Below are positions 1-58,304 of a stretch of 64,000 bases of DNA, piece after piece; within the stretch, counting starts at the first letter, position 1, and every line of letters starts with the position of its first letter. This DNA comes from Eledone cirrhosa (lineage: Eukaryota): positions 101,990,001 through 102,054,000 of the forward strand of contig OZ024741.1 in NCBI GenBank assembly GCA_964016885.1. The letters are read 5' to 3'. The position numbers and the translations under genes were made by a program. Under the pieces are notes generated by a model. That model had not been told where the DNA came from. It saw only the letters and a list, made by a program, of their open reading frames with translations, and searched no databases.

Positions 1-126
1 CTGTATTGTGCAGTATGCTGTAGATGTGAGGTTCGATTCCAGCAGACGGTATTGTCACATTTTTCCCTGTCATACTTCTATGTTTATAAATGTAAATGTT
101 TTAAGTTTATCATAAATATCTTTACC

Positions 127-36095: not shown

Positions 36096-36163
36096 GCCTC
36101 GGTAGCGCAGTAGGCAGCGCGTCAGTCTCATAAAGGTCGTGAGTTCGATCCTCACCTGGGGCA
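36096..36163 (+). pseudogene. tRNA-Met(CAT) pseudogene with a 27-nt deletion (intron + 3' anticodon stem)
   Basis: CTCATA-AAGGTCG; ATCTG is missing. Confidence 0.85.
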
Positions 36164-37332
36164 CAATTTTTTCATTTTTATTATTCAATAATATTATCTT
36201 TCACAATTTACTGAACCAGATTTGAGAGCCTACATGTTACAACTAACCTGGTGATTTTAACAACTTCGGGCCTAAATTTCACAATTGGGCTTATAACCAG
36301 ATGTCCTTGTCATTTTAACAGCTTTGGTGTCTTAATCTTACAATTGGGCTTATAATCAGATCTACTGGTTATTTTAATAACTTTGGCTTCCAAAATCTCA
36401 CAATTGGCTTGAGTCTATTACCAGCTTTGGAGGCCTACACTTCACAGTTGTCTTGGGCCTATAATCAGTTTGGGGACCGCAGATTTCGCAACTGATGACG
36501 CCATGCTTTGCAGCAAAGAGTTACGGCCCTTTATGGGCTTACATTTAGCAACTGACGTGGGACTATCACCAACTTTGGGAAACGACATTTCACACTTCAT
36601 CTGGGTCTAAGTTCTGGTTTGCAAAGTCTTGTTTGTAAGTGAAGGAAAATAATATCTGTGAACTCCGTTCAAAATATTCTGTGGTATTTAGTTATGTTAA
36701 AGATTAACGTATATTAATTATAATTAGATGAAGTACTTCCGAATGTAAGGTTATTTCTCTTGGACCATAATGAATTCTAATTTAGGTATAAGGGCAGCAA
36801 TTTGTGGGGAAGTAAAAAACTATAATATCGATCTCAGTACTTTATTAGTATTTTATTCTAACGAACCAGGAACGATGGAAGGCAAGGTTGGAATCGACAG
36901 CATTTGATCTCTTCTATGTACAATAATAAAAACAAAAACACTGTAATAAATATGTTGTATTAACGGTCCCCATATATATTTTATATTTAGATGAAATGCG
37001 CGCAATAAAGATCTATAATCGTGCCTAGTACACACAATAAGTGAATGTAGAGACTTCAGAATTTATGGTTATTTCCCTTGCACAAGAATGTAAATACATC
37101 CAGTTTCGTAATTGACAGGAAATTAAAGTAAGTGATTAACAAATTATTAAGATAGGTAATGTAGGAAAACCTACTTCATTATATTTTTAAAGTATGTACA
37201 GTATAAGGAACTATGTGCAAAAACAGCTCTAATCAAAAGTGAATCAGATATACACATAGTAGATTGTCTGACAATATCGACATTATAAAGTGATAGTGTT
37301 GATATAGTTAAATAGAAAAAGTGCGTCTAGTT

Positions 37333-37427
37333 GCCTCGGTAGCGCAGTAGGCAGCGCGTCAGTCTCATAATCAAAAGTAGTACTTGGAGGAATCTGAAGG
37401 TCGTGAGTTCGATCCTCACCTGGGGCA
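37333..37427 (+). tRNA. tRNA-Met-CAT: Elongator tRNA-Met(CAT), intact, 22-nt intron
   Basis: GCCTCGGTAGCGCAGTAGGCAGCGCGTCAGTCTCATA[ATCAAAAGTAGTACTTGGAGGA]ATCTGAAGGTCGTGAGTTCGATCCTCACCTGGGGCA, followed by a T-run. Confidence 0.93.
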
Positions 37428-38040
37428 CATTACTTTTCTTTCATTTTTATTATTTTTTTTAGTTCAATAATATTATCCTTTGAAGGGCATTTAAAGCTTA
37501 TTTATGAAGCGAGAAGTAGATATTTTCTATATTCAGAAATGATCAACCATACATTATGTGTTCTATTAAACAAAATATACAATGAATTGATTGGCATTTC
37601 GTAATATGGAGTATATTTTACATTTACCAGGTTTAGCGCCTTCATTTCACAACGCACTATTGACCGCCTATATTTCATAAACAAGCTGTGCTTATCACCT
37701 GCCCTGAGACCTATGTTCCAGAACTGACAAAGGAGTATAACCAGCTTTAGCTGTCTACATTTTTGAGCAGGGTGTAATCTCTGGTTAGTTGTGAAATATA
37801 GGCATTAGAGCCGCTACTGGACCCAGGTTGTTTATGTTATGTAGTCACTCAAAACAGGCAATAGGCTTAGATCAGTTGTAAAATGTAGTTATCTAAAGCT
37901 GATAATAGGACAAGGTTAGTTGTGTAGTCTGGGGGCTCAAATTGGTAATATAAACATGTTCGCATTTTAATATAGGCCACGAATCAGGCAAACACGTGCA
38001 ACTTTAAAGATCCATAGCAATTGGGAAATGTAAGCACAAA

Positions 38041-38390
38041 AAATATTTTATAATCTCTGGTAAGTTGTGAAATGTGTGCTACTAAAACTGGTTGCGCTCC
38101 CTGGTTAGTTGTGAAATATAGGCCTCAAAAATATTTTATAATCTCTGGTAAGTTGTGAAATGTGTGCTACTAAAACTGGTTGCGCTCCCTGGTTAGTTGT
38201 GAAATATAGGCCTCAAAAATATTTTATAATCTCTGGTAAGTTGTGAAATGTGTGCTACTAAAACTGGTTGCGCTCCCTGGTTAGTTGTGAAATATAGGCC
38301 TCAAAAATATTTTATAATCTCTGGTAAGTTGTGAAATGTGTGCCACTAAAACTGGTTGCGCTCCCTGGTTAGTTGTGAAATGTAGTCCTC
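38041..38390. repeat. Young 88-bp tandem repeat x4 (dimer of the 44-bp satellite, inverted orientation)
   Basis: Near-identical copies start at 38041, 38129, 38217 and 38305. Confidence 0.92.
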
Positions 38391-38652
38391 AGAGATGGCT
38401 ATTGGCACAGATAGTTTATGAAATATAGGGCCTCAAAGCAGGCAATATGCCCACGTCACTTGTGAAAAGAACGCCATAAAACTTGCTAAATTTTCTAACT
38501 GCCAAATAATCCAGGGCACATTTTGTTTAATAGAACACATATTGTATGATTGATCATTTCTGAATCGACGAGATATCTACTCCTAGATTCACGAAGTACG
38601 GTTTATAATGCATTCAAAGGATAATATAATTGAACCAAAAAATAAAATAAAT

Positions 38653-38746
38653 TTCCCCGGTCAGAATCGAAATCACGACCTTCAGATTCCTGCATGCAGT
38701 ATTTTAGATTACGAGGCCGACGCGATGCCTACTGCGCTACTGAGGT
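38653..38746 (-). pseudogene. Degenerate tRNA-Met copy with intron
   Basis: Many substitutions; the anticodon reads CGT; B box damaged. Confidence 0.8.
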
Positions 38747-40107
38747 AACTATCGGTGTTTTTTTATAGGTAACTACATCAACACTAACACTAAAATATTT
38801 CTAATTGCTATGTTGTCAACCCATGTACGATGTCTGTCTAACACTGTATTGTGTATATCTTATTTTAATTAGAGATGTTTTTACTTACTTCATTATAATT
38901 TATCTAATTGTTAATTACAAGTTAATTACAAGGCTGGTTTTAGTTTCAGTCTTATGCAGGTGGGGGGGGGGGGGGGGGTAACCTTGATTTCTGTAGTCTA
39001 TAATCTCTAATTGTGCATATTATGCATGGTTGCATTTTTTTTAAATATTCACAATGCCGTGTCAAATATCGTACATAGACTAACAATATAGCAAATAGTA
39101 AGAGATAGTGTTGATGTAGTTAAATAAAAGCAGTGAAGAATATTTCCTAGATTCAGAAATGATCAACCATACATTATGTATTCTATTAAACAAATGTACA
39201 CTGAATTAATTGGCAGTTAGAAATGTGGTGTCTATTTCACATTTACCGGGTTTAGGGTCTTCATTTCACAACGGACCTGGGCATATTGCACGCTTTAGGT
39301 GTCTACATGTCGTAAACAACCCGGGCCTATTATCTTACATTCACAACTGACGATAAAGTAAATCCATCTTACAACTGACATGGAATTACCAGTCTTTGTG
39401 CTTCATTTCACAATTATGCTGGTTGGTCCTTTAAGATATTTTCATGCGGGGAGGAGAGTGAGGCCACACAATTTTCCCGTCTTTTATCAGCTTTGGAAGC
39501 CTTTATTAATAGGTGGACTTGAGCCTATTACCAGTTTGGGGTCCCTAAACTTCACAACTAATCTTGTCATATTAATTACCAGCTTTACATGCCTACATTC
39601 CAATTCATCTGGTGTCATTACTAATTTGGGGCCTACATTTCACACCTAACCTGTGACTATTACCATCTTTGTGGTCGTCCTATATTTCACATCTTACCTG
39701 GACCAATTTACAGATTTCTTCACAGAGGGTGCTGCATTCTCCATCCCAAATGTTCTTATATCGTGATTTACAAGGTCATGATTGTAAGTGCGTTGAAGTA
39801 GAAATGAAGTAGGGGGCAAAAAGAATAAAAATAATAATAATAAAAATATCATGCACAATATGCACAATTACAGATCGTAGACTATATAAGATTACCTTCC
39901 TTGAATAAGATTGAAAATAAAACCAGTTTTGCAATAAGCATGTAATTAACAATAAAATTAAGTATATGGAAGAAGGTAAAAATTATCTCTAATTAAAATA
40001 TAAATAGAAATACGCAATACAGTGCTACATGTTGTACATAAGATGACAACAAAGCAATTAGAAAGTGTTAGTGTTGATGTAGTTAAATATAAAAAGGGCC
40101 GCCAGTT

Positions 40108-40202
40108 ACCTCGGTAGCGCAGTAGGCAGCGCGTCAGTCTCATAATCGTTAGTAATACTTGGAGGAATCTGAAGATCGTGAGTTCGATCCTAACCTGGGG
40201 CA
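40108..40202 (+). pseudogene. tRNA-Met(CAT) copy with intron, 3 exon substitutions
   Basis: G1A, variable-loop G>A, T-stem C>A. Confidence 0.8.
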
Positions 40203-40550
40203 CTAATTTTTTTCATATTTCTTTAGCTCAATTACTGGGATCTATTTTTTACATTTGAAATGGATTTTAAAACATTTTAAAGTGTGGATGGGTGCTACAC
40301 AATTTGCTCGCCATTTTACCAGCTTTGATAAATTACTGATTTTGGTCTTCTATTTCACAGCTAACCTGGGACTATTAGGAGTTCTGAGTGCCTACATTGC
40401 CCTGGTCCTTTAAAACATTTTTTGCGGGGGAAACGGTGGGGCTACGCAATTTGACTGCCCTTTCACCAGCTTTTGTGGCCTATATTAAAAACCTGACTTG
40501 GGCTTATTATCAGTTTAGGGTCCTTAGACTTCACAACTGACCTGGTCCTA

Positions 40551-40908
40551 CACCATGCTTTACAGCATAGAGTTATGGTCCTTTACGTCCTGAGTTCAAA
40601 TCCCGCCGAGGTTAACTTTGTCTTTCATCCTTACGGGGGCGATAAAATAAAGTACCAGTAATGTACTGAGTAATTGCTGGCCTTGTGCCAAAAGTAGAAA
40701 CAATTATTATCTATAGATGCCTACATTTCACATCTGATATGTGTCTATTATTAGCCATGCTTTCCAGCATAGTTACGTCCCTTTACGATCTGAGTTCAAA
40801 TCCCGCCGAGGTTGACTTTGCCTTTCATCCTTACGGGGTCGATAAAATAAAGTACCAGTAATGCACTGGATAATTGCTGGCCTTGTGCCTAAAGTAGAAA
40901 CAATTATT
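40551..40908 (+). mobile_element. Two 5'-truncated Nin-core SINEs (40551-40710, 40756-40908)
   Basis: B box, Nin core and aacaattatta tail. Confidence 0.85.
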
Positions 40909-41508
40909 AGTTGGGCGCCATGCTTTGACGCATATAGTTACGGCCCTTGAAAGAAGGTTGGATACACTAATGAACTCGTCTGGTCTCACTTACTGATCCA
41001 GCTGGCGTAACATGGGAAGAAGGAGAAGGTAGTAATTTTTGGGGGAGAGGAAAATCAATGAAATCGATCCTAGTACTTTAACTACGACCGAAGAACGATG
41101 AAAGTCAGTAGGATTATATCTTTCCCTAGCGCATTAATGAAACCATAAAATTGATATGTTGTATTATCAGTATCCATACGTAATTTATACATAGGTGAAG
41201 TGAGTGTAGATAAATATAATTATAATTGTTTCTACTTTTTGGCACAAGGCCAGCAAAATACCCAGTGCATTACTGGTACTTTATTTTATCGACCCCATAA
41301 GGATGAAAATAATTATAATGGAGCCAAATATTCACATTAGAAATCGTGGACTACGAAATTTAAAGTTACCTCCCTTGAACAAGATAACAAATACAACCAG
41401 TTTTGTAATTAACAGGTAGTTAACAATTATACTGACAATTTCACTGACAACATAATAATTAGAAAGCAATAGTGTCGATATAGTTAAATATAAGTGTAAC
41501 TAATGGTT

Positions 41509-41603
41509 GCCTCGGTAGCGCAGTAGGCAGCGCGTCAGTCTCATAATCAAAAGTAATATTTGGAGGAATCTGAAGGTCGTGAGTTCGATCCTCACCTGGG
41601 ACA
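41509..41603 (+). tRNA. tRNA-Met-CAT: tRNA-Met(CAT) with intron, one acceptor-stem mismatch
   Basis: The 3' end is CCTGGGACA (G71A); otherwise consensus. Confidence 0.7.
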
Positions 41604-41726
41604 CATTTTTTTTTCATTTTTAGTTCAACAATATTATCTTTTGAAAGAATTAGAAAGCTTACTTCATGAGGCGAGGAGTAGCTATTTCCTAGATTCAGAA
41701 GTAATCGACCATATAATACATGTATT

Positions 41727-41914
41727 GTGGATTGGCAGTATCGGTAGAGGGTCGGACGCCATGCTTTCCAGCATTGATTTACGGCCCTTGCCATTCTGAG
41801 TTCAAATCCCGCCGAGGTTAACTTTGCCTTTCATCCTTACGGGGTCGATAAAATAAAGTACCAGTAATACACTGGTTAATTGCTAGCCTTGTGCCAAAAG
41901 TAGAAACAATTATT
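41727..41914 (+). mobile_element. Full-length Nin-core SINE
   Basis: gtggattggcagtatcggtagag...gagttcaaatccc...gtagaaacaattatta. Confidence 0.88.
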
Positions 41915-42907
41915 AACCAAAGTGTACACTGTAATAATTGATAGTCAGAAATAGAGTCTAATTTCGTATTCTCCCTGAGCCTATTTCAATTCAGCTCTGG
42001 GTTTTACATTTCACAATTGTCAGGATTCCATTTCACAATGGCTTTATGCCTATTGCTTGCTGTGAGGGCCTACATTTTACAGCTGACCAGGGATTATAAC
42101 CAGCTTTAGGGACCTGCATTTCAAAACTGATATGCAATTATAACAAGTTAATTGGCTGCTTACAATTCGCAATTAACTTGGAGGTTTATTCAAAATCTGA
42201 CATGGACCTATTTCCCTAGACCTCGCAACTAACCTATTCGTATTCTCATCTTTAGATGGCTACATTTCACAACTAACCTGGAGCCGAGGTTGACTTTGCC
42301 TTTCATCCTTACGGGGTCGATAAAATAAAGCACCAGTAATGCACTGGGTAATTGCTGGCCTTGTGCCTAACGTAGAAACAATTAATTATAATTAAATGAT
42401 TTATGAATCTCCCTTGTACTATAATAATTTTTAATTTAGGCACATAGCTAGTCATTTTATGGAGAGAATAAAATCTATTAAATCGATGCTAGTACTTTAT
42501 TGGTACTTTATTTTATTGACCCAAGAACGTTGAAAAGGAAAGTCTAATCAGCAGGATTACATCTCTTCTTTACACAACAATAAAATCATGAAATTAATGT
42601 TAAATAATTTATACTTCGATGAGGTGAGTGCATATTAAAAAAGAAAACAACTATAATCGTGCCAAATACACACAATTAAATATCGTAGACTACGGAATTT
42701 AAGGCTACCTCCCTGGAACATGATTGTTTCATAATAAACTTGTAATTAAGAATTTGATAATGTATAATGATGCAGGTAAAAATTATCTATAATTAAAAGA
42801 AAATGATATATACACAATGCAATGTAATACACCGAACATGCGTTGATAACATATCAATTAGAAAGTGTTAGTGTTGATGTAGTTACATAGAAGGAATGTC
42901 ACCAGTT

Positions 42908-42983
42908 ACGCGCGTCTGTCTCATAATCTAAAGTAGTACTTGGAGGAATCTGAAGGTCGTGAGTTCGATCCTCACCTGGGGCA
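42908..42983 (+). pseudogene. tRNA-Met copy lacking the D arm
   Basis: agttac-gcgcgtc deletion; intron and 3' exon intact. Confidence 0.8.
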
Positions 42984-43253
42984 TGATTATATTTCATTTT
43001 TTTTTAGTTCAATTTAAAGTTTACATCATGAAGCGAGGAGTAGATATTTCCTAGATTCAGAAATGATCGACAAAAACAATATGAGTGCTCTAAAAAAAAC
43101 AGGAGGTATAATGAATTAATTGGCAGGTAGATATGTGGTGCATTTCAGATTTCTAATTAAAATTAGATATACACAATGCAGTTAGATATTGTACATGGAC
43201 TGACAATATAGTAATTAGAAAATAGGGGTTCAATATAAGGAGATCCGACAGTT

Positions 43254-43321
43254 GCCTCGGTAGCGCAGTAGACAGCGCGTCAGTCTCATAATCAGAAATA
43301 ATATTTGGAGGAATCTGAAGG
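43254..43321 (+). pseudogene. 3'-truncated tRNA-Met copy
   Basis: Ends at tgaagg, fused to spacer gcgatcaaatagctc. Confidence 0.8.
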
Positions 43322-43437
43322 GCGATCAAATAGCTCTAATTAAAATAAAATTATATATATACAATGCAGTGTTAGACAACGTAGCAATTATAATGTATTA
43401 GTGTTGATGTAGTTAAATAAAAGGTGTGCTGTCAGTT

Positions 43438-43532
43438 GCCTCGGTAGCGCAGTAGGCAGCGCGTCAGTCTCATAATCATTAGTAATACGTGGAGGAATCT
43501 GAAGGTCGTGAGTTCGATCCTCACCTGGGGCA
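43438..43532 (+). tRNA. tRNA-Met-CAT: Elongator tRNA-Met(CAT), intact, 22-nt intron
   Basis: Consensus exons; intron ATCATTAGTAATACGTGGAGGA; long T terminator. Confidence 0.93.
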
Positions 43533-44847
43533 CTACATTTTTTTTTTTTTTTTTTTTAGTTTAATTATATTATTATCTGAACCAATATTATACTCTGAAG
43601 GGCAGTTAAAGCACACTTCACAAGCGAGGGTTAGATATTTTATTTCCTAGATTCAGAAATGATCGACCAAACAATATGACTCATATTAAAAAAGATTGTA
43701 GACTGAATTAATTGGCAGTTAGAAATATGGTGTATTTCATATTTACCAGGGTTAGGATTCTAATTTCACAAAGGACCTAGGAATATTGCCCGCTTTCAGG
43801 GCCTACATTTCATAAACAACCTGGGCCTATACCAGCTCTGAGGCATACGTTTCACATATGACCAGGGTTTATAACCAGCTTTAGGGGTCTACATTTCACA
43901 CCTGACATTCTGTTATAATTAGTTTAGGTTGCCATTTTACCAGTTTTGTAGGTCTATATTTAAAGGCTGACATGGGCCTATCAGCAGTTTAACGTATATT
44001 AATTATAATTAGACGAATCTACGTACTATAATAATGTTTAATCTAGGTACATGTCTAGTCATGTCTGGAGAGAGTATAATGAATTAAATCGATCCCAGTA
44101 CTTTATTGGCATTTTATTTTATCGGCCCAAGAATAATGAAAATCAAAGTTGATATCTGCAAGATTAGATCTCCACTTTACACCATAATAAAACCATGAAA
44201 TTAATATGTCGTATTAATAGTCGCCTTATATAATCTATATGTAGATGAAGTGGATGAGATAAATAAAGAAGCAAAAAATCTATAATCATCTGCAGTATAT
44301 ACAATTCAGCTCATCAGCATCGCTGCGAGTGTGCTGGCTTGCCAAAAAAATCTTTCGAGCGGTTTCCCAGTACGCGTGACGTTGCTATCTTTTGCTCTGG
44401 TTTTGGCTCCGTTGTTCACCCCTTCCTTTACATTTCTTTAATATTGTAACATTAAAACACTATATCTTTCTGAAAGAATCGCGAGCTATTTATAATGTTG
44501 CCTAAGCATTTGTAATGTTATTTATGTATATATTTAAAACATATTTGTTATGTTATTCTACTGTAAATTTATTTATATGCTCTGTTTATATTTTCATTCT
44601 GAAAGAATTGCAAACGATTTGTAATGTATATACGATTAGAAGTCGTAGACTAGGGAATTTAAGTTACCTCCCTTGAACAAGATTAAAAATCCAACCAATT
44701 TTGTAAATAACATGTAATTAAGAATGAGATAAAATATAATAAAAATGTAAATATAGCCCTAATTAAAATAAAATTAGATACAAACAATATGGGCTGACAA
44801 CATAGGAATTAGAAAATAGTTGTTCAATATAAGAAATTTCGTCAGTT

Positions 44848-44942
44848 GCCTCGGTAGCGCAGTAGGCCGCGAGTCAGTCTCATAATCGGTAGTAATACTT
44901 GGAGGAATCTGAAGATCGTGAGTTCGATCCTCACCTGGGGCA
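44848..44942 (+). pseudogene. tRNA-Met(CAT) copy with intron, 3 exon substitutions
   Basis: aggccgcgag and gaagatc variants. Confidence 0.75.
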
Positions 44943-45492
44943 CATTTTTTTTAGTTCAACAATATTATCCACTTAACAAATTATAAAGCTTACTTCATGA
45001 AGCGAAGAGTAGATATTTCCTACATTTAGAAATGATCAACCATACAATATGTGTTCTATTAAACAAATGTACACTGAAATAATTGGCAGTGAGAAATCTG
45101 GTGTAAACTTCATATTTTGCAGGTTTAAGACCTTCTTTTCACAGCTAACGTGGGTATATTGCTCGTTTTGAGGGTCTATATCTCGAACACAAACTTGACC
45201 TATTACGTTCTCTGTGGCCAACATTTCACAACTGATAAGGTATTATAACCAGTTTTATGGGTATACATTTTACAACTGACCAGGGAGTATTTTGAGGCCT
45301 ACATTTCACATTTACTAAGCAGGTTATAATCACTGGTGAAATGTAGGCCCCAAACGCTGGTTACACATTCTGGTTATTTGTAATATGTAGAACTCAGGAC
45401 TGGTAAGTGGCACAGATTGTTTAAATAATGTAGGTCCTCATAGCAATAAATGTACACGCACACACATATACGTGCGCGCGCACACGCACACA

Positions 45493-45599
<107 letters not shown>

Positions 45600-45814
45600 C
45601 TATCATGCGCAATAAGCATAATTAGAAATTATAATAAGATTGAAATTTGTAATGAACTTCTAATTAACAATTACATAAATTATAATGAAGTAGGTAACAA
45701 ATATCTCTAATTAAAATAAGATATACACAATACGGTGTTAGACACCGTATTGACAATATAGCAATTAGAAAGTGGTAGTGTTGATGTAGTTAAATATAAG
45801 ACGCATTACCAGTT

Positions 45815-45909
45815 GCCTCGGTAGCGCAGTAGGCAGCGCGTCAGTCTCATGATCAAAAGTAATTCTTGGAGGAATCTGAAGGTCGTGAGTTCGATCCTCA
45901 CCTGCGGCA
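45815..45909 (+). pseudogene. tRNA-Met(CAT) copy with intron, A37G and G69C
   Basis: CTCATG, CCTGCGGCA. Confidence 0.7.
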
Positions 45910-46578
45910 CATTTATTTCTTTTTTTTAGTTCAACAATATTACATTTAGAAGCTTACTTCATGAAGCGAGGAGTAGCTATTTCGTAGATTCAGAAGTAAT
46001 CAACTATATAATATATGTATTATTAATCAAAGTGTACACTGTATTAACTGATAGTCAGAAATAGTAATAGGGTCTAATTTCGTATTCTGCCTGAACCTAT
46101 TCCAATTCAGCTCTGGGTTTGAGACTTCACAGATGACTTGGTTGTAATACTAGCTTTGGGAGCCTATATTTCACAACAGATGTGGGCCTGGTACCATTTT
46201 TGGCGGCGTACATCATACATTTGTCCTGAGCCTATTACTTCTTTGTGGGATTACATTTCAAAGCTATCTGGGTTTATTAGCAGTTTCGGAAACCTGCATT
46301 TCACAAATGGATTGGTCTTATCATCAGCTTTATGTGCCTATATTTCAAAACACACCTAGCCCTATTACCATTGTTAGGGTCTACATTTCACAACTAACCT
46401 GGAGCTAGTACCAGCTTTGGGCAAATTGACAAATTTCTTTGAATTCGGCACAGTTTCTTACATCTCACCTGTTCTTATATCGTGATGTACACTGTCATGA
46501 TTGTAAGTGCGGTGAAATAGCAATATCTATAAATGACGTTGTGGTGTTTAGTTAATCCCCTTTATGATAAGATATGTG

Positions 46579-46770
46579 GGTGGAATGGCAGTATTGGTAG
46601 AAGGTCGGACGCCATGCTTTGCAGCAAAGAGTTACGTCCCTTTATGGTCTGAGTTCAAATCCCGCCGAGGTTAACTTTGCCTTTCATCCTTACGGGGTCG
46701 ATAAAATAAAGCACCAGTAACTCACTGGGATAATTGCTGGTCTTGTGCCAAATGTAGAAACAATTAATTA
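46579..46770 (+). mobile_element. Full-length Nin-core SINE (a partial duplicate lies at 42283-42388)
   Basis: A/B boxes, core and tail. Confidence 0.85.
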
Positions 46771-47287
46771 TAATTAAATGATTTATGAATCTCCCTTGTA
46801 CTATAATAATTTTTAATTTAGGCACATAGCTAGTCATTTTATGGAGAGAATAAAATCTATTAAATCGATGCTAGTACTTTATTGGTACTTATTTTATTGA
46901 CCCAAGAACGTTGAAAAGGAAAGTCTAATCAGCAGGATTACATCTCTTCTTTACACAACAATAAAATCATGAAATTAATGTTAAATAATTTATACTTCGA
47001 TGAGGTGAGTGCATATTAAAAAAAACAACAACTATAATCGTGCCAAATACACACAATTAAATATCGTAGACTACGGAATTTAAGGCTACCTCCCTGGAAC
47101 ATGATTGTTTCATAATAAACTTGTAATTAAGAATTTGATAATGTATAATGATGCAGGTAAAAATTATCTATAATTAAAAGAAAATGATATATACACAATG
47201 CAATGTAATAACCGAACATGGGTTGATAACATATCAATTAGAAAGTGTTAGTATTGATGTAGTTACATAGAAGGAATGTCACCAGTT

Positions 47288-47382
47288 ACCTTGGTAGTGC
47301 AGTAGGCAGCGTGTCAGTCTCATAATCGAATGTAATACTTGGAAGAATCTGAAGGTCGTGAGTTCGATCCTCACCTGGGGCA
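47288..47382 (+). pseudogene. Degenerate tRNA-Met copy with intron
   Basis: G1A and several CpG transitions in the 5' exon. Confidence 0.8.
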
Positions 47383-47673
47383 TGATTATATTTCATTTTT
47401 TTTTAGTTCAATTATATTATTCTCTGAAGGCATTTAAAGTTTACATCATGAAGCGAGGAGTAGATATTTCCTAGATTCAGAAATGATCGACAAAAACAAT
47501 ATGAGTGCTCTAAAAAAAACAGGAGGTATAATGAATTAATTGGCAGGTAGATATGTGGTGCATTTCAGATTTCTAATTAAAATTAGATATACACAATGCA
47601 GTTAGATATTGTACATGGACTGACAATATAGTAATTAGAAAATAGGGGTTCAATATAAGGAGATCCGACAGTT

Positions 47674-47741
47674 GCCTCGGTAGCGCAGTAGACAGCGCGT
47701 CAGTCTCATAATCAGAAATAATATTTGGAGGAATCTGAAGG
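47674..47741 (+). pseudogene. 3'-truncated tRNA-Met copy (duplicate of 43254)
   Basis: Identical junction. Confidence 0.8.
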
Positions 47742-47857
47742 GCGATCAAATAGCTCTAATTAAAATAAAATTATATATATACAATGCAGTGTTAGACAAC
47801 GTAGCAATTATAATGTATTAGTGTTGATGTAGTTAAATAAAAGGTGTGCTGTCAGTT

Positions 47858-47952
47858 GCCTCGGTAGCGCAGAAGGCAGCGCGTCAGTCTCATAATCATT
47901 AGTAATACTTGGAGGAATCTGAAGGTCGTGAGTTCGATCCTCACCTGGGGCA
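47858..47952 (+). tRNA. tRNA-Met-CAT: tRNA-Met(CAT) with intron, one D-loop substitution
   Basis: GCAGAAGG instead of GCAGTAGG; stems intact. Confidence 0.82.
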
Positions 47953-48675
47953 CTACTTTTTATTTTTTTTTAGTTTAATTATATTATTATCTGAAACAAT
48001 GATATTATACTCTGAGGGGCAATTAAAGCACACTTCACAAGCGAGGGTTAGATATTTTATTTCCTAGATTCACAAATGATCAACCGTACATTATGTGTTC
48101 TATTAAACAAAATGTACACTGAATTGATTGGCATTTATTAATGTGGAGTACATTTCTCATTTACCAGGCTTAGCGCCTTCATTTAACAACGCTTTGTGGG
48201 CCTATATTTCATAAACAATCTGGGCTTATTACCTGCCCTTAGACCTATATTCCACAACTAATAAAGGAGTATAACCAGATTTAGGTGTCTACATTTCAAA
48301 GCTGCGCCTATTATTATTCTGAAGTCACCTGAGCTCACAATTAACCTGGTCCTATTAACCGCTTTAGATGGCTACATTTCACAACTAATCTGGGCTTATT
48401 AATATTTTGGGGCCTACATTTCACAACTAACTTCTAACTATTTCCATCTTTTGTGACTTGAATTTCACAACTCACTTAAGCAAATACAGAAATTTCCTTA
48501 CGGATGGCACTGCAATTCACCTGTTCTTATATTGTGGATTACAAGGTCATGGTTTTAAGGGCGATGAAATAGCTCTAATTAAAATAAAATCATATATACA
48601 CAATATAGTGTTGACAACATAGCAATTAGAATGTGTTAGTGTTGATGTAGTTAAAAAAAAGACGCACTGCTAGTT

Positions 48676-48770
48676 GCCTCGGTAGCGCAGTAGGCAGCGC
48701 GTCAGTCTCATAATCATTAGTAACAATTGGAGGAATCTGAAGGTCGTGAGTTCGATCCTCACCTGGGGCA
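48676..48770 (+). tRNA. tRNA-Met-CAT: Elongator tRNA-Met(CAT), intact, 22-nt intron
   Basis: Consensus exons; intron ATCATTAGTAACAATTGGAGGA. Confidence 0.93.
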
Positions 48771-50146
48771 CTTATTTTATTTCAATTTTTTCAGTTTAAT
48801 TATATTATCCACTGAAGGCATTTAAAGGTGACATCATTAAGCGAGGAGTAGATATTTCGTAGATTCAGAAATGATCGACCAAACAATATGACTCATATTA
48901 AAAAAGATTGTAGACTGAATTAATTGGCAGTTAGAAATATGGTGTATTTCATATTTACCAGGGTTAGGATTCTAATTTCACAAAGGACCTAGGAATATTG
49001 CCCGCTTTCAGGGCCTACATTTCATAAACAACCTGGGCCTATACCAGCTCTGAGGCATACGTTTCACATATGACCAGGGTTTATAACCAGCTTTAGGGGT
49101 CTATATTTCACACCTGACATTCTGTTATAATTAGTTTAGGTTGCCATTTTACCAGTTTTGTAGGTCTATATTTAAAGGCTGACATGGGCCTATCAGCAGT
49201 TTAACGTATATTAATTATAATTAGACGAATCTACGTACTATAATAATGTTTAATCTAGGTACATGTCTAGTCATGTCTGGAGAGAGTATAATGAATTAAA
49301 TCGATCCCAGTACTTTATTGGCATTTTATTTTATCGGCCCAAGAATAATGAAAATCAAAGTTGATATCTGCAAGATTAGATCTCCACTTTACACCATAAT
49401 AAAACCATGAAATTAATATGTCGTATTAATAGTCGCCATATATAATCTATATGTAGATGAAGTGGATGAGATAAATAAAGAAGCAAAACATCTATAATCA
49501 TCTGCAATATATACAATTCAGCGCATCAGCCTCGCCATCACCCGAGGCAACGCTGCGAGTGTGCTGGCTTGCCAAAAAAATCATTAGAGAGGTTGCCCAG
49601 TACGCTTGACGTTGCTATCTTTTGCTCTGGTGTTGGCTCCGTTGTTCACCCCTTCCTTTACATTTTCTTTAATATTGTAACATTAAAAGAATATATCTTT
49701 CTGAAAGAATCGCGAGCTATTTATAATGTTGTCTAAGCATTTGTAATGTTATTTATGTATATATTTAAAACATATTTGTTATGTTATTCTACTGTAAATT
49801 TATTTATATGCTCTGTTTATATTTTCATTCTGAAAGAATTGCAAACGATTTGTAATGTATATACGATTTGAAGTCGTAGACTAGGGAATTTAGGTTACCT
49901 CCCTTGAACAAGATTAAAAATCCAACCAATTTTGTAAATAACATGTAATTAAGAATGAGATAAAATATAATAAAAATGTAAATATAGCCCTAATTAAAAT
50001 AAAATTAGATACAAACAATGCAGTGCTAGATATTGTACATGGGCTGACAACATAGGAATTAGAAAATAGTTGTTCAAGATAAGAAATTTTGTCAGGTGGA
50101 AAATAAAGAATAATATTATTGAACTAAAAAAGATATGAAATATTAG

Positions 50147-50241
50147 GGCCCCATGTGAGGATCGAACTCACGACCTTCAGATTCCTCTAAGTATTACTTC
50201 TGTTTATGAGACTGACGCGCTACCTACTGCGTCACCGAAGC
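50147..50241 (-). pseudogene. Degenerate inverted tRNA-Met copy (paralog of 54902)
   Basis: Shares GGTGACG and intron AACAGAAG with 54902. Confidence 0.8.
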
Positions 50242-50800
50242 AACTGACGTGTTATTGTATATTTAATTATGAGGGCCTAAATTCAAAATCTGACCTGGGC
50301 CTATTACCAGGCTGGTGTCACTAAACATCGCAACTAACCTCGTCGTATTTTCATCTTTAGATGCCTACATTTAACAACTAACCTGGAGCTAGTACCAGCT
50401 TTGGGTTCCAGCATTTCACACCTCACCTGACCAAATTGACATATTTCTTTGAAGCCGACACAGTTTTTTATATCTCACCTATTCTTATACGATGATAAGG
50501 TTATTATTGTAAGTGCTGTGAAATAGCAAAATCTCTAAACGAGGTTCAAAATATTTATGGTGTTTAGTGGATTCTCTTTATGACAACAATCATGCGCAAT
50601 ATACACAATTAGAGGTTATAATAAAATTGAAATTAGCTTGTAATTAACAATTAGATAAATTATGATGAAGAAGGTAAACAATATCTCTAATTAAAATAAG
50701 ATATACACAATGCAGTGTAAGACACCGTATATTGGTTGACAACATAACAATTAGAAAGTGATAGTGCTGATGTAGTAACATATAAGGAACGTCCACAACA

Positions 50801-50895
50801 GTCTCGGTAGCGCAGTAGACAGCGCGTCAGTCTCATAATCGTTAGTAATACTTGGAGGAATCTGAAGGTCGTGAGTCAGATACTCACCTAGGGCA
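50801..50895 (+). pseudogene. Degenerate tRNA-Met copy, B box broken
   Basis: gagtcagatac. Confidence 0.8.
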
Positions 50896-50920
50896 CTAGT
50901 TTGATTATATTATTATCTGA

Positions 50921-51488
50921 GGGTCGGACGCCATGCTTTGACGTATAGAGTTACGGCCCTTGCCATTCTGAGTTCAAATCCCGCCGAGGTTAACTTTGCC
51001 TTTCATCCTTAGGGGGTCGATAAAATAAAGTACCACTGGGTAATTGCTGGCCTTGTGCCTAACGTAGAAACAATTATTATCTGAGCCAATGGTGAATTGG
51101 CAGTATCGGTAGAGGGTCGGACGCCATGCTTTCTAGCATAGTTATGTCCCTTTATGATCTGAGTTCAAATCCCGCCGAGGTTAACTTTGCCTTTCATCCT
51201 TACGGGGTCGATAAAATAAAGTACCAGTAATGTACTGGTTAATTGCTGGCCTTGTGTCAAAAAGTAGAAACAATTATTATCTGAGCCAATTAGTGCGGTG
51301 GATTGGCAGTATCGGTAGAGGGTCTGACGCTATGCTTTGCAGCATAGAGTTACGGCCCTTTATGATCTGAGTTCAAATCCCGCCGAGGTTAACTTTGCCT
51401 TTCATCCTTACGGGGTCGATAAAATAAAGTACCAGTAATACACTGGGATAATTGCTGGCCTTGTACCAAAAGTAGAAACAATTATTAT
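50921..51488 (+). mobile_element. Three head-to-tail Nin-core SINEs (50921-51080, 51091-51280, 51298-51488)
   Basis: Each is followed by attattatctgagccaat. Confidence 0.9.
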
Positions 51489-51935
51489 CTGAGCCAATGA
51501 TATTATACTCTGAAGGGCAGTTAAAGCATACTTCACTAAGCACGAAGTAGATATTTCCTAGATTCAGAAATGATCAACCATACATTATGTGTTCTATTAA
51601 ACAAAATGTACACTAAATTGATTGGTATTTAGTAATGTGGAGTATATTTCACATTTACCAGTTTTAGCGCCTTCATTTCACAACATACTATTGACTGCTT
51701 TGTGGGCCAACATTTTATAAACAATCTGGGCTTATTACCTGCTCTGAGGCTACATTCCACAACTGACAAAGGAGTATAACAGGAGGTATACTGAATTAAT
51801 TGGCAGGTAGATATGTGGTGTATTTCAGATTTCTAATTAGAATTAAATACACACAATGCATTGTTAGATATTGTACATGGGCTGTCAACATAGGAATTAG
51901 AAAATAGTTGTTCAATATAAGAAATTTCTGCAGTC

Positions 51936-52030
51936 GCCTCGGTAGCGCAGTAGGCAGCGCGCCAGTCTCATAATCGTTCGTAATACTTGGAAGAATCTGA
52001 AGGTTGTGAGTTCGATCCTCACCTGGGGCA
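51936..52030 (+). pseudogene. tRNA-Met(CAT) copy with intron, 2 exon substitutions, anticodon-intron G lost
   Basis: T27C, C48T; the intron ends GGAAGA. Confidence 0.72.
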
Positions 52031-52576
52031 CTATTTTTCTTTTCTTTTTTTAGTTTGATTATATTATTATCTGAGCCAATAATATTATACTCTGAAGGGC
52101 ATTTATAAACAATATTTTATAAACAATCTGGGCTTATTACCTGCTCCGAGGCTACATTCTACAACTGACAAAGGAATATAACCAGATTTAGGTGTCTACA
52201 TTTCAGAGCTGACGTGGGCTTGTTACTAATCTGGGGTCACAAAAGCTCACAATTAACCTGGTCCTATTACCCGCTTTAGATACCTACATTTCACAACTCA
52301 TCTGGGCTTATTAATATTTTGGGGTCTACATTTCACAATTAACCTCTAACTATTACCACCTTTTTGACTTGCATTTCACATCTGACCAAAGCAAATATAG
52401 AAATTTCTTTACAGAGGGCGCTGTTCTTATATCGTGGATTACCAGGTCTTAGTTTCAAAGGCGATGAAATAGCTCTAATTAAAGCAAAATCATATATACA
52501 CAATATAGTGTTAGACAATATAGCAATTAGAATGTGTTAGTGTTGATGTAGTTAAATAAAAGCAGTACTGTTAGTT

Positions 52577-52671
52577 TCCTCGGTAGCGCAGTAGACAGCG
52601 CGTCAGTATCATAATTGAATGTTATACTTGGAGGAATCTGAAGGTCGTGAGTTCGATCCTCAGCTGGGGCA
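52577..52671 (+). pseudogene. Degenerate tRNA-Met copy
   Basis: G1T, D-loop GG>GA, C32A, cagctgg. Confidence 0.8.
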
Positions 52672-53551
52672 CGATTTTTTCTAATTTTATTTCAATTTTT
52701 TAGTTCAATTATATTATCCACTGAAGGCATTTAAAGTTTTCTTCATGAACCGAGGAGTAGATATTTCGTAGATTCAGAAATGATCGACCAAACAATATGT
52801 GTCATATTAAAAAAGAGTGTACACTGAATTAATTGGCTGGTAGAAATATGGTGTATTTCATATTTACTAGGATTAGGATACTAATTTTACAAAGGACCTA
52901 GAGGTATTGCACGTTTTCAGGGCCTACATTTCATAAACAACCTGGGCCTATAACTAGCTCTGGGGCATACGTTTCACAACTGACCAGGGTTTATAACCAG
53001 CTTTAGGGGCCTACATTTCACATCTGACTTTCGGTTATAATTAGTTTTGGTTGCCATTTTGCCAGTTTTGGGGACCTATATTTAAAGGCTGACATGGGCT
53101 TATCAGCAGTATGGGTTCCTTAGACCTTATAAATAAGCTGCTACTACTACCAGCTTTAGCTGCCTACACTTCATGACTGATCTGGCCCTATAACTAGTTT
53201 TACTAGTTTGATCCTACATTTCACAACTAACCTCTGACAATTACCAGCTTTGGAGTCCTACACGTCAAATCATACCTGGGCCAATTTACAGATTCCTTTA
53301 CAGACGGCTATGCATTTTGCACCTCAACTGTCCTAATATAGTGACGTACACTGTCATGATTGTAAGTGCGATAAAATAGCAATGTCTCTAAATTATGTTC
53401 AAAATATTTTGTGGTGTTTAGTTAACTCCCTTTATGGTAACATATGTTATGTTACAGATTAACGTATAGTGTCGGACAATAAAATTAGATACAAACAACG
53501 CAGTGTTAGATATTGTACAGGGGCTGACAACATAGGAATCAGAAAATAGTT

Positions 53552-53645
53552 GCTCGGTAGCGCAGTAGGCCGCGCGTCAGTCTCATAATCGGAGGTAATA
53601 CTTGGAGGAATCTGGAGGTCGTGAGTTCGATCCTCACCTGGGGCA
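53552..53645 (+). pseudogene. tRNA-Met copy with deleted proximal 5' flank
   Basis: aatagttg-ctcggtag junction; two further substitutions. Confidence 0.78.
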
Positions 53646-54901
53646 CATTTCTTTCGTTTTTAGTTCAACAATATTACATTTTGAAGGAATTAGAAAGCTA
53701 CTTCATGAAACGAGGAGGAGATATTTCCTAGATTCAGAAGTAATCAACTATATATGTATTATTAATCAAAGTGTACACTGTATTAATTGATAGTCAGAAA
53801 TAGGGTCTAATTTAGTATTCTATCTGAGCCTATTCCAATTCAGCTCTGGGTGTTACGCTTCACAAATGACTTGGTTGTAATATTATCTTTGTGGGCCTAT
53901 ATTTCACAACAGATGTGGGCCTGGTACCATTTTGGGGGCGTACATCATGCATTTGTCCTGGGCTTATTACTTCTTTGTGGGTCTACATTTCAAAAGTGAT
54001 CTACGTTCATTAGCAATTTTGGAAACTTGTATTTCACAAATGGACTGGTCTTATCATTAGCTTTGGATTTTTGTTTGCACTCACCTAGCCCTTTTACCAT
54101 TTTTGGGGTCTACATTTCACAAATGTCCTCGGCCTTTACCATTTTGGGGGCCTACAATTCACAAATGAGGTGAGACTATTAGTAGCATTGGTATCCACAT
54201 CTCACCTCTCACCTGGGCGTATCAGCTGGTTTGCACAGTCTTGATTGTAAGTTCGATGAAATCGTTCAAAATATTTTCCCCAGTACTATAGTTTATGTTA
54301 CATTAAAGATTCACTTATAGAAATAATAAAACGAAATAATTCCGAATGTAAGTTTATCTCCCTTGCATCAGAATGTAATCTTAAACGTTACAATAACTAT
54401 GTATTCACGGTTTGACACATAATATATAATTTTATGAAGTGAATGCAAATAACAATTTATATTCTCAATTAGAAATCGCAGAGAATGAAGTCTCCACGAC
54501 CTCAATTATGGATTTTTATTTGCACCTTAATTACAAAGTGGTAAACGTTAATACATGTTTCCCGCAAAAATGTTTTAAAGGTCCAGGGCAATTGTGAAAT
54601 GTAGGCTCACAGAACTGGTAATAGTCTCAGGTTAGTTGTGAAATGTAAAACCCAAACTAGTAATAGGCCCACGTCACCTATTTAATGTAAGCATCCCAAA
54701 CCAGTAATATGACTGGAAAATTTTATATCACCCTCACCAACCCCTCCAACCTAAGAATTTTTAAAAGGTCAGGTCAAATGTTGGCTCCAATAACTGGTTA
54801 GAATTCCATATCATATACAGGACTATAAAGCTGGTTATAAGACCTGGTCAGGTCGAAAATAAAGAATAATATTATTGAAGTAAAAATATATGGAATATTA
54901 G

Positions 54902-54996
54902 TGCCCCAGGTGAGGATCGAACTCACGACCTTCAGATTCCTCTAAGTATTACTTCTGTTTATGAGACTGACGCGCTACCTACTGCGTCACCGAGGC
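54902..54996 (-). pseudogene. Inverted tRNA-Met(CAT) copy with intron and altered A box
   Basis: GCCTCGGTGACGCAGTAGGTAGCG...; 3' exon intact. Confidence 0.75.
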
Positions 54997-55443
54997 AACT
55001 GACGGGTTATTTTATATTCAACTATGAGGGCCTAAATTCAAAATCTGACCTGGGCCTATTACCAGGCTGGTGTCACTAAACATCGCAACTAACCTTATCG
55101 TATTTTCATCTTTAGATGCCTACATTTAACAACTAACCTGGAGCTAGTACCAGCTTTGGGTTCCTACATTTCACACCTCACCTGACCAAATTGACATATT
55201 TCTTTGAAGCCGACAGTTTTTTATATGTCACCTATTCTTATACCATGATGTACACGGTTATTATTGTAAGTGCGGTGAAATAGCAAAATCTCTAAATGTG
55301 TATATCTTATTAAAATAAGATATACACAATGCAGTGTAAGACACTGTATATGGATTGAGCAATTAGAAAGTGATAGTGTTGATGTAGTAACATATAAGAA
55401 ATATCCACAGTGATGTAGTTAAATATAAGTTCAACTCCTAGTT

Positions 55444-55538
55444 GCCTCGGTAGCGCTATAGGCAGCACATCAGTCTAGTAATCGAAAGTAATACTAGGAA
55501 AAATCTGAAAGTCGTGAGGTCGATCCTCACCTGACGCA
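55444..55538 (+). pseudogene. Highly degenerate tRNA-Met copy
   Basis: More than 10 substitutions; anticodon loop altered. Confidence 0.75.
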
Positions 55539-56457
55539 CTATTTCTTCATTTTATTTTATTTTTCAGTCCAAATTTATTATCCTCTGATGGCATTTAAAG
55601 CTTCCTCCATAAAACGTGGAGTTGATTTTTTTTCATAGATTCAGAAATGATCAACCATACATTATGTGTTGTATTAAACAAAATGAACACTGAATTATTT
55701 GGCAGTTAGAAATGTGGAGTCTATTTCACATTTACCAGGTTTAGGGCCTTCATTTCACAACATACTATTTACCACCTTGGGGGACTATATTTCATAAACA
55801 ACCTGGGCTTATTACCTGCTCTGAGGCCTACTTTCCACATCTAACCAAGGAGTATAACCAGATTTAGATGTCTACATTTCAAAACTTACGTAGATCTGTT
55901 ACTAATCTGGGGTCACCTGAGCTCACAATTAAATTGGTCCTATTGCCCGCTTTAGATGCCTACCTTTCACAACTGATCTGGGCTTATTAATATTTTGGGG
56001 CCTACATTTCACAACTAATCTCTGACCACCTGTGTGAATTGCATTTCACATCTCAAGTAAACAAATATAGAAATTTCTTTACAGAATGTTGTACATTTTA
56101 CATCTCACCTGTTCTTACATCGTGGATTACAGGGTCATGGTTATAAAGGCGATGAAATAGCTCTAATTATAATAAGATTATATATACACAGATTTACACA
56201 ATCCTACTACCAGATTTAGATGCTTACACTTCACAACTTATCTGTTTTACTAGTTTTACTAGTTTGGATCGTACATTTCACATCTAACCCCTAACAACTA
56301 CCATCTTTGGAGTCTTACATAGTTAGGTCATGGTTTTAAGGGCGATCAAATAGCTCTAATTAAAATAAAATTATATATACTCAATGCAGTGTTAGACAAC
56401 ATACCAATAAGAATGTATTAGTATTGATGTAGTTAAATAAAAGATGTACTGCCAGTT

Positions 56458-56552
56458 TCTTCAGTAGCGCAGCAGGCAACGCGTCAGTCTCATAATCGTT
56501 AGTAATACTTGGAGGAATCTGAAGGGCGTGAGTTCGATCCTCACCTGGGGCT
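56458..56552 (+). pseudogene. Degenerate tRNA-Met copy
   Basis: Acceptor stem disrupted. Confidence 0.78.
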
Positions 56553-57546: not shown

Positions 57547-57641
57547 TGCCGTAAAGGAGGATCAAACTCACGACCTTCAGATTCCTCCAATTATTACTTC
57601 TGATTATGAGACTTACGCGTAGCCTACTGCGCTGCTGAGGC
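57547..57641 (-). pseudogene. Degenerate inverted tRNA-Met copy
   Basis: Intron present; acceptor stem and B box mutated. Confidence 0.78.
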
Positions 57642-58209: not shown

Positions 58210-58304
58210 GCCTTGGTAGCGCAGTAGGCAGCGCGTCAGTCTCGTAAACGGAAGTAATACTTGAAGGAATCAGAAGTTCGTCAGTTCAATCCTCACCTGG
58301 GACA
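58210..58304 (+). pseudogene. Degenerate tRNA-Met copy
   Basis: Anticodon CGT; multiple 3'-exon substitutions. Confidence 0.78.

What the first reader, a model, noticed from the sequence alone, without database searches (positions are those of the whole stretch)
37364..37397. The intron has the geometry of a splicing-endonuclease substrate, and an AATC direct repeat hints at its origin
Seen: the intron ends ...TTGGAGGA. Its third-last base G can pair with C32, extended by U33-A and C34-G, then U36-G, A37-U and A-U with A35 bulged. That leaves a 3-nt bulge G,A|A38 at the 3' splice site. Established: this is the anticodon-intron pair plus 3-nt bulge required by eukaryotic TSEN. Across copies the pairing 3' part is nearly invariant while intron positions 4-7 vary freely (AAAA, GTTA, ATTA, AGAA, GGTA, GAAT, GGAG, TAAA), and the length stays 22 nt. 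The insert is bounded by AATC...AATC, resembling a 4-bp target duplication or slippage event (inference).
Basis: partly seen in the sequence, partly recalled or inferred. Interest (0 to 1): 0.7.

Follow-up and report, generated by a model that had tools for sequence, protein, structure and literature searches.

The report
Animal methionine tRNA intron mimics exon
Every elongator methionine tRNA gene found in this mollusc carries a short, likely enzyme-spliced intron, although a recent review treats that intron as absent from animals, and its first three bases copy the exon so that a predicted guide RNA in the same genome would likely still methylate the unspliced tRNA.

Summary
The 22-nt insert is real and sits at the canonical 37/38 position of an elongator tRNA-Met(CAT) gene in a mollusc. 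An exon-anchored pattern finds 103 copies with an insert and none without. Exons are near-identical on five contigs while the introns diverge. G(-3), the partner of C32, is kept there and in 59 of 60 distinct related introns (13-24 nt) from metagenomes, so a TSEN substrate is very likely. Splicing itself was not observed.

AATC...AATC is not a target duplication: the last intron base varies (A in 18 of 60), while the 5' AU(C) is nearly invariant (AU 60 of 60). Tyr introns of the same genome never start so (0 of 27).

The genome holds a SNORD97/ceN56-like box C/D gene whose antisense element points at C34. It pairs 12 bp with mature tRNA and, through AUC, 10 bp with pre-tRNA. So AUC is likely a landing site for guided Cm34 methylation before splicing, as proposed for plants and archaea. 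New variant of a known kind.

The parts
37333..37369 (+). Exon 1 of elongator tRNA-Met(CAT), positions 1-37; anticodon at 37366-37368
   Evidence: ARAGORN and Rfam RF00005; both exons together differ at 4 of 73 positions from human9 eMet in Fig. S4 of PMC6601510 (compared by hand)
37370..37391 (+). 22-nt intron at canonical position 37/38
   Evidence: ARAGORN i(37,22); 103 genomic matches with insert, 0 without
37392..37427 (+). Exon 2, positions 38-73
37387..37389 (+). Intron GAG at -5..-3, partner of C34, U33, C32; G(-3) at 37389 is the anticodon-intron pair
   Evidence: 25 of 26 distinct intact-copy introns in G000; G(-3) 59 of 60, purine(-4) 60 of 60, G(-5) 47 of 60 in metagenome introns
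37370..37372 (+). Intron 5' AUC that copies mature positions 38-40
   Evidence: 25 of 26 in G000; +1 A 60/60, +2 U 60/60, +3 C 54/60, +4 free; 0 of 27 distinct Tyr introns start with AU
37363..37372 (+). Predicted 10-bp target of the box C/D guide on the unspliced precursor (U31 to intron +3); guide position D+5 faces C34 (37366)
   Evidence: pairing table; the guide gene lies outside the window at G000:C18:42599695-42599848 and, 1828 bases on, 42601523-42601676 (L222, L223)
37308..37315 (+). TATA-like upstream element about 25 bases before the gene, shared by most copies
   Evidence: low-variation columns in the flank alignment; function inferred
37434..37437 (+). T run, likely Pol III terminator
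   Evidence: sequence; T runs follow the other copies
36096..61897 (.). Window part of the tRNA-Met cluster: 23 full copies with 22-nt insert plus partial copies, both strands; the cluster continues to about 91 kb beyond the window
47288..47382 (+). Copy with G(-3)>A and 4 exon changes (likely pseudogene)
51936..52030 (+). Copy with G(-3)>A and 2 exon changes
55444..55538 (+). Copy with G(-3)>A, 10 exon changes and altered anticodon (pseudogene)
36096..36163 (+). Copy lacking the intron plus five exon bases of the anticodon stem: a 27-nt deletion, not a clean intron loss

Best explanation
This is a 37/38 insert in the elongator tRNA-Met genes of a mollusc, likely an intron cut out by TSEN, whose two conserved ends likely serve two successive steps: the 5' AUC would let a SNORD97-like box C/D guide methylate C34 on the unspliced precursor, and the 3' GAG would then pair with C32-U33-C34 to set the 3' cut. 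SHOWN: position, presence in every copy found, conservation of both ends, absence of the AUC start from Tyr introns, and a guide-shaped gene whose antisense element matches. INFERRED: Pol III transcription; guide pairing over U31 to intron +3 (10 bp, guide positions 2-11) with fibrillarin making Cm34; release and refolding (the guide duplex and the anticodon-intron helix use the same bases, so they exclude each other); TSEN cleavage; ligation by RTCB. The confidence given is for the whole chain. The intron/TSEN part alone is about 0.95.
For: Intron: 103 matches with an 8-30 nt gap, 0 with 0-4 nt, 0 with a degenerate intron-less pattern. 62 of 140 recovered copies have at most 1 exon change; they lie on C2, C5, C7, C8 and C20, their exons differ by 0-2 bases and their introns between contigs share only 12-18 of 21-24 columns. 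G(-3) 59 of 60 over lengths 13-24, with U33-A to U33.G one-sided change in 6. Human TSEN needs a pair between -6 of the 5' site and -3 of the 3' site (PMC8479045 passages). Selection in the C2 cluster (distinct sequences): AUC+GAG differ at 2 of 132 sites in intact copies, 14 of 132 in decayed ones (Fisher p 0.003); positions 8-17 show no such contrast (24 vs 27 of 220). Controls for AUC: Tyr introns of G000, whose exon 2 also starts AUC, 0 of 27 distinct (counted by hand); Met introns with distant exons 1 of 14 and 0 of 4. Guide: of 39 motif hits only two have a C box plus a long terminal stem (8 bp; all others at most 4), both in one intron, sense strand, of a SOSS-B1-like gene; both ends align with Rfam ceN56, and SNORD97 matches end to end. 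Conservation ends after +3, where a 10-bp duplex would end. Precedent: plant and archaeal eMet introns take part in the guide duplex (PMC10576143 passage).
Against: No RNA evidence for transcription, splicing or methylation was obtained. The guide pairs better with the mature tRNA (12 bp) than with the precursor (10 bp) and does not match intron +4 onward, so it may act only after splicing. Its Rfam scores are far below the gathering thresholds (ceN56 19.2 of 60 bits, E 0.098; SNORD97 15.1 of 45, E 2.7), and the motif count itself is at chance level (39 vs 63 in the control). Six of 60 introns start AUG and would pair only 9 bp with this guide. AUC alone gives p 0.03 and GAG alone p 0.11 in the intact/decayed test, and copies are not independent. 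ViennaRNA does not favour the C32-G pair in the focal copy (0.24). The assembly may be incomplete. The 10-nt limit is known to me from a title in a reference list; the positions 2-11 are recalled.
Confidence: 0.6

Rival explanations
1. A TSEN intron, but the 5' AUC is kept for another anticodon-loop enzyme acting on the precursor (for example t6A37, which needs U36-A37-A38, or pseudouridine synthases), and the guide methylates only spliced tRNA.
For: +1 A and +2 U are invariant while +3 tolerates G in 6 of 60; the guide matches mature 31-42 better than the precursor; intron-dependent modifications are known for other tRNAs (PMC12168002).
Against: The t6A motif (recalled) explains +1 only, not +2 and +3. 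Met introns with distant exons have the same loop yet free 5' ends.
Confidence: 0.17
2. The repeat is a relic of the intron's birth by tandem duplication or slippage of the start of exon 2, with no present function.
For: 6 of 60 related introns begin with 6-7 bases identical to exon 2; the four C8 introns hold an internal 7-9 base copy of the junction (6-76 of 20000 shuffles reach it; post hoc); L192 also starts with 7 such bases.
Against: A neutral scar would not stay at 60 of 60 while the neighbouring bases and the length are randomised, and AUC decays in pseudogenes but not in intact copies. The 3' A of the proposed AATC duplicate is A in only 18 of 60. Longer 5' mimicry also lengthens guide pairing, so it does not discriminate. 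A duplication origin may still be true as history (about 0.35) alongside the best explanation.
Confidence: 0.1
3. The terminal AUC repeat buffers imprecise cutting: because eMet has U31.U39, TSEN may cut 1-3 bases downstream at both sites, and the repeat makes the product identical.
For: Folding predicts a shifted bulge (U31-G(-2)) at 0.2-0.76 in copies with G(-2); intron placement is formally ambiguous over AUC.
Against: G(-2) occurs in only 1 of 60 related introns; distant-type Met introns share U31.U39 and lack the repeat.
Confidence: 0.07
4. The cluster is a tRNA-derived repeat or pseudogene array and the insert is never spliced.
For: Many copies are decayed (22 of 53 distinct C2 sequences have 4 or more exon changes; all 44 C3 copies have 9-13) and part of the cluster is a 2.4-kb tandem array.
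Against: No intron-less gene to serve elongation was found; exons are near-identical on five contigs with unrelated flanks; the same architecture occurs with 11 exon variants in other assemblies.
Confidence: 0.03

Closest known systems
Canonical eukaryotic tRNA introns cut by TSEN (animal Tyr-GUA, Ile-UAU, Leu-CAA, Arg-UCU)
   Same: Position 37/38, short, pyrimidine 32 paired with purine -3 (PMC8479045); Tyr introns of this genome show G(-3) in 26 of 27 distinct sequences.
   Different: Isoacceptor is elongator Met; the 5' end is sequence-conserved and copies the exon, which Tyr introns here do not do.
Elongator tRNA-Met introns of plants, algae, fungi and archaea
   Same: Same isoacceptor and position; in plants and archaea the intron is reported to join the guide duplex for Cm34 (PMC10576143).
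   Different: [quoted passage not shown] Here the guide matches the exon and the intron imitates the exon, so one guide fits spliced and unspliced forms. Homology with the plant intron was not tested.
SNORD97 / SCARNA97 (SNORD133) / C. elegans ceN56 box C/D guides of eMet Cm34
   Same: D-box antisense element across the anticodon loop with D+5 on C34; intronic, sense strand; C and D boxes in a terminal stem.
   Different: Host is a SOSS-B1-like gene, not EIF4G2 or LARP4; two copies in one intron; GU/AU-rich inner stem instead of a pyrimidine tract; the human target is intron-less; below Rfam thresholds.
Target-site duplications of mobile insertions
   Same: A 4-base direct repeat flanks the insert in most C2 copies.
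   Different: One half is under selection, the other is exon plus a free base; no element ends or coding capacity.

Membership tests
Canonical TSEN-type tRNA intron | Insert between positions 37 and 38 of an intact cloverleaf | tested here: met
Canonical TSEN-type tRNA intron | Anticodon-intron pair between 32 and -3 | tested here: met
   25 of 26 distinct intact-copy introns in G000, 59 of 60 in metagenomes
Canonical TSEN-type tRNA intron | 3' splice site in a 3-nt bulge closed by the 31-39 pair | tested here: inconclusive
   31-39 is U.U in eMet; folding gives 0.24-0.84 for the A-I pair in intact copies and alternative registers
Canonical TSEN-type tRNA intron | Removal is needed (no intron-less gene of the isoacceptor) | tested here: met
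   0 intron-less matches with two patterns vs 103 with insert; assembly completeness unknown
Canonical TSEN-type tRNA intron | Spliced product exists in RNA | not tested
   no RNA reads were laid on the gene
Canonical TSEN-type tRNA intron | Cleavage by TSEN and ligation by RTCB | not testable with these tools
   needs a cleavage assay; TSEN genes were not searched in G000
Elongator tRNA-Met(CAU) | Mature sequence like animal eMet, CAU anticodon, U31.U39 | tested here: met
   4 differences in 73 from human9 in Fig. S4 of PMC6601510
SNORD97-type box C/D guide (G000:C18) | C and D boxes closed by a terminal stem, intronic in sense orientation | tested here: met
   C box with one mismatch, canonical D box, 8-bp stem, between SOSS-B1-like exons
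SNORD97-type box C/D guide (G000:C18) | Antisense element with D+5 facing C34 of eMet | tested here: met
   12 bp with mature 31-42, 10 bp with precursor
SNORD97-type box C/D guide (G000:C18) | Rfam score at or above the family's gathering threshold | tested here: not met
   SNORD97 15.1 of 45 bits, ceN56 19.2 of 60; filed here only as 'SNORD97-like'
SNORD97-type box C/D guide (G000:C18) | Expression, fibrillarin binding and Cm34 formation | not testable with these tools
   experiment needed
Target-site duplication | Identical repeat on both sides that decays neutrally and evenly after insertion | tested here: not met
   5' AU 60 of 60 but last base A 18 of 60; C7 and C20 copies lack the 3' A

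The most novel reading that the evidence does not exclude
The elongator Met intron is an old and widespread feature of invertebrates, missed because model animals lost it. Its 5' end is a built-in exon mimic that lets the SNORD97-type guide methylate C34 before splicing; because one guide fits both forms, vertebrates, flies and worms could lose the intron without losing Cm34. This would be the first guide-RNA-defined sequence element in an animal tRNA intron.
Probability: 0.4. Interest if true: 0.72.

Novelty: new variant of a known kind. Interest (0 to 1): 0.55.

Why it matters
Why tRNA introns persist is an open question. PMC12168002 speculates about undiscovered intron-dependent modifications for Met tRNA, and PMC13578239 treats the Met intron as absent from animals. 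This mollusc appears to depend on splicing for all internal methionine decoding, and related sequences suggest many invertebrates do too. The three conserved bases and the candidate guide make the order 'methylate, then splice' testable with two-base swaps and a compensatory guide. Caveat: tRNAscan-SE based databases probably list such introns already (not checkable here), so the new part is the pattern and the mechanism rather than the bare gene.

Tried and rejected
1. Within-window column conservation as proof of pairing: rejected, the non-pairing middle is as invariant.
2. Extended helix with bulged A35: rejected.
3. Free folding as a test: uninformative; in C8 and C3 copies the intron's internal copy of the stem strand wins the minimum-energy fold.
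4. Intron borrowed from tRNA-Ile(UAU): the recalled Ile motif found nothing in G000, so untested. Two Tyr motifs also failed before worked.
5. Sequencing-run search: 24 runs listed, every holder under 5 sampled words, none laid; no evidence either way. Splicing in RNA remains open.
6. Whole records behind the metagenome loci are not held, so their taxa are unknown.
7. Guide motif scan: 37 of 39 hits rejected for lack of a C box with a long stem. Rfam on 20 whole loci showed microsatellite noise among the 150 of 156 rows listed. A DNA search with the guide found only the two copies and one 45-base partial match.
8. Literature searches without a report of an animal eMet intron: (one search was for TSEN rules). 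Two papers were not held (Yang 2016, Joardar 2011; titles only). Figures S3 of PMC6601510, S13 of PMC10576143 and 5B/S7 of PMC12168002 could not be seen and may bear on novelty.
9. Earlier findings of this scan: none.
10. Rows dropped before the count of 60: of 132 metagenome matches, 54 were set aside (more than 3 exon differences or cut ends); the 78 kept collapse to 60 distinct introns.

Full report
WHAT IS THERE. Positions 37364-37397 are the anticodon loop of a tRNA gene at 37333-37427(+). The exons differ at 4 of 73 positions from the human9 elongator Met sequence printed in Fig. S4 of PMC6601510 (by hand), so it is the elongator. The genome (G000, 3.0 Gb) has 39 matches to the haemocyanin beta-sandwich family PF14830, which I know as mollusc-specific (recalled), so I call it a mollusc. 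The gene is one of 23 full copies in the window; the cluster runs on to about C2:102,145,000 and holds 88 of the 140 copies my script recovered from the stretches fetched.

The C32-G(-3), U33-A, C34-G pairing, the 22-nt length in the window, the eight 4-7 variants, the three G>A copies and the AATC repeat are all in the sequence. But the window does not single out the pairing bases: minor-letter fractions are 0.058 (+1..3), 0.446 (4-7), 0.075 (8-14), 0.087 (15-17), 0.072 (GAG), 0.022 (last two), against 0.235 in the upstream flank. The longer helix has probability 0.06 and the C32-G pair 0.24 in the focal copy; the six intact copies folded from other contigs give 0.25-0.84 with the cloverleaf enforced, and the G>A copy 0.00. 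Position 31-39 is U.U, so the 3-nt bulge is a convention rather than a computed result.

IT MUST BE SPLICED (inferred). An exact pattern over both halves of the anticodon arm finds 103 places with an 8-30 nt gap, none with 0-4 nt, and a degenerate intron-less pattern finds none. The tool warns that absence from an incomplete assembly is not proof. Copies with at most one exon change (62 of 140) lie on C2, C5, C7, C8 and C20; their exons differ by 0-2 bases, their 30-base upstream flanks between contigs match at 6-15 positions, and their introns at 12-18 of 21-24 columns. Of 26 distinct introns in these copies, 25 keep GAG at -5..-3, 25 start ATC and 20 end in A. In the C2 cluster these six bases differ at 2 of 132 sites in intact copies and 14 of 132 in decayed ones (p 0.003); positions 8-17 do not differ (24 vs 27 of 220); AUC alone p 0.03, GAG alone p 0.11; copies are related, so these are guides only. 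The copy at 36096 lacks the intron plus five stem bases and is a deletion. No RNA evidence was obtained.

IT IS NOT PECULIAR TO THIS GENOME. A metagenome scan (stopped at 39 of 64 parts) gave 132 matches in 127 loci. I kept the 78 with complete exons within 3 differences of the window's; they have 11 exon variants and 60 distinct introns of 13-24 nt. G(-3) 59 of 60, purine(-4) 60 of 60 (54 A, 6 G, both pair with U33), G(-5) 47 of 60; positions -6 to -9 and -2, -1 are free. This fits the rule for human TSEN, a pair between position 32 and -3 (PMC8479045, passages). The organisms behind these contigs are unknown; 'animal-type' rests on exon similarity alone, and holozoan protists are not excluded. 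The pattern fixed the downstream ATC, so its invariance there is not evidence.

THE AATC REPEAT. In the 60 introns +1 is A in 60, +2 U in 60, +3 C in 54 (G in 6), +4 is free, and the last base is A in 18. So the repeat is three conserved intron bases that copy mature 38-40, not a 4-base scar. Controls: tRNA-Tyr of the same genome, whose exon 2 also starts ATC, gave 61 matches (one overlapping) on 8 contigs, 27 distinct introns, none starting AT and 26 with G(-3) (counted by hand). Met introns with distant exons start ATC in 1 of 14 and 0 of 4. TSEN therefore does not need AUC. Traces of a longer duplication exist: 6 of 60 introns start with 6-7 exon-2 bases, and the four C8 introns hold an internal 7-9 base copy reached by 6-76 of 20000 shuffles (post hoc). 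A birth by duplication stays possible but cannot explain the invariance.

A GUIDE THAT EXPLAINS AUC. Human eMet C34 is 2'-O-methylated by SNORD97 and SCARNA97, with one homologue in insects, Ciona and plants (PMC6601510, parts 1-3 of 4 and supplement text). The printed SCARNA97 probe shows that the antisense element spans positions 31-41, across the 37/38 junction. I searched G000 for that element next to a D box: 39 hits, at chance level (63 in the control). All 39 were examined; two have a C box 124 bases upstream and an 8-bp terminal stem, the rest at most 4 bp. They are near-identical 154-nt copies at C18:42599695-42599848 and 1828 bases further, in one intron and on the sense strand of a gene whose exon matches SOSS complex subunit B1 (E 1.2e-20). 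Both ends align closely with Rfam ceN56 and SNORD97 matches end to end, but far below threshold. Guide position D+5 faces C34. It pairs 12 bp with the mature tRNA and 10 bp with the precursor in 11 of 13 intron 5' types (9 and 11 bp in the other two); without AUC it would pair 7. With the 60 related introns it pairs 10 bp or more in 54 and 9 in 6; with distant-type introns 7-9 in 13 of 14. A title in a reference list states that C/D guides recognise at most 10 nt (paper not held), which is where conservation stops. PMC10576143 (passage) reports that plant and archaeal eMet introns take part in the guide duplex and that splicing likely follows methylation. Against this reading: the guide keeps two extra pairs for the exon and none for the intron beyond +3.

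COMPARISON AND NOVELTY. It works like, and by the testable features is, a canonical TSEN intron. PMC12168002 (passages, section 12) names Met introns as conserved in plants and fungi. [quoted passage not shown] The Trichoplax table marks no intron for Met (PMC2655684). PMC4536317, PMC4090602, PMC8450103, PMC2888827, PMC2770079, PMC7671301, PMC7994747, PMC6601515 and PMC7038934 were seen as passages and named no animal eMet intron. Nine searches found no such report; subscription papers, unseen figures and tRNA databases are outside this check, and databases probably list the genes. Whether the animal intron is inherited from the plant/fungal one or was gained later is open.

VERDICT. Observation partly confirmed; TSEN intron about 0.95; target duplication rejected as stated; exon-mimic landing site for a SNORD97-like guide about 0.6. 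New variant of a known kind, interest 0.55.

Noticed in passing
window, about 13 to 5 bases upstream of each tRNA-Met copy (e.g. 37320-37328): Hypervariable block (minor fraction about 0.3-0.64) between a conserved TATA-like element and the conserved four bases before the gene; resembles the transcription-associated mutagenesis I recall for active tRNA genes. Intron 4-7 is similarly hypervariable while 8-17 is not, which is unexplained.
   Followed up: partly
G000:C3:199365000-199426300 (L056-L062): Tandem array of 44 Met-derived copies, about 1.4 kb apart, all with 9-13 exon changes that damage the D and T arms, still homogenised and carrying a C8-type 21-nt intron.
   Followed up: partly
G000:C2:102063000-102107000 (L031-L036): Regular 2.4-kb tandem unit with two Met genes of two alternating intron types.
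   Followed up: partly
G000:C18:42599695-42601676 (L222, L223): The guide gene is duplicated within one intron of a SOSS-B1-like gene and has a long GU/AU-rich inner stem, like the Cajal-body signal of vertebrate C/D scaRNAs described in PMC6601510; a possible D' guide has no target assigned.
   Followed up: partly
G000:C1:49290000-49403400 (L236-L238): Tandem array of more than 40 intron-containing tRNA-Tyr genes.
   Followed up: no
window 31626-31748 (-): 5S rRNA copy, 60.5 bits, with several mismatched pairs; possibly a pseudogene.
   Followed up: no
window 10188-12263 (-): Two adjacent open frames that look like a Penelope-type reverse transcriptase and GIY-YIG endonuclease (read by eye; labels recalled, not tested).
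   Followed up: no
window 20098-21063 (-): Two frames that look like an ISXO2/IS1595-type transposase fragment (by eye; label recalled).
   Followed up: no
window 50919-51498: 208-bp unit in about three tandem copies containing a motif I recall from octopod SINEs; not tested.
   Followed up: no
L085, L078, L087, L088, L139 and twins: One exon variant has five distinct introns that all start AUG instead of AUC; a natural test case for guide co-variation.
   Followed up: no
L192: Met gene with more distant exons whose intron starts with seven bases identical to exon 2 and ends in GAG-NN; may mark the edge of the AUC-type intron's range.
   Followed up: no
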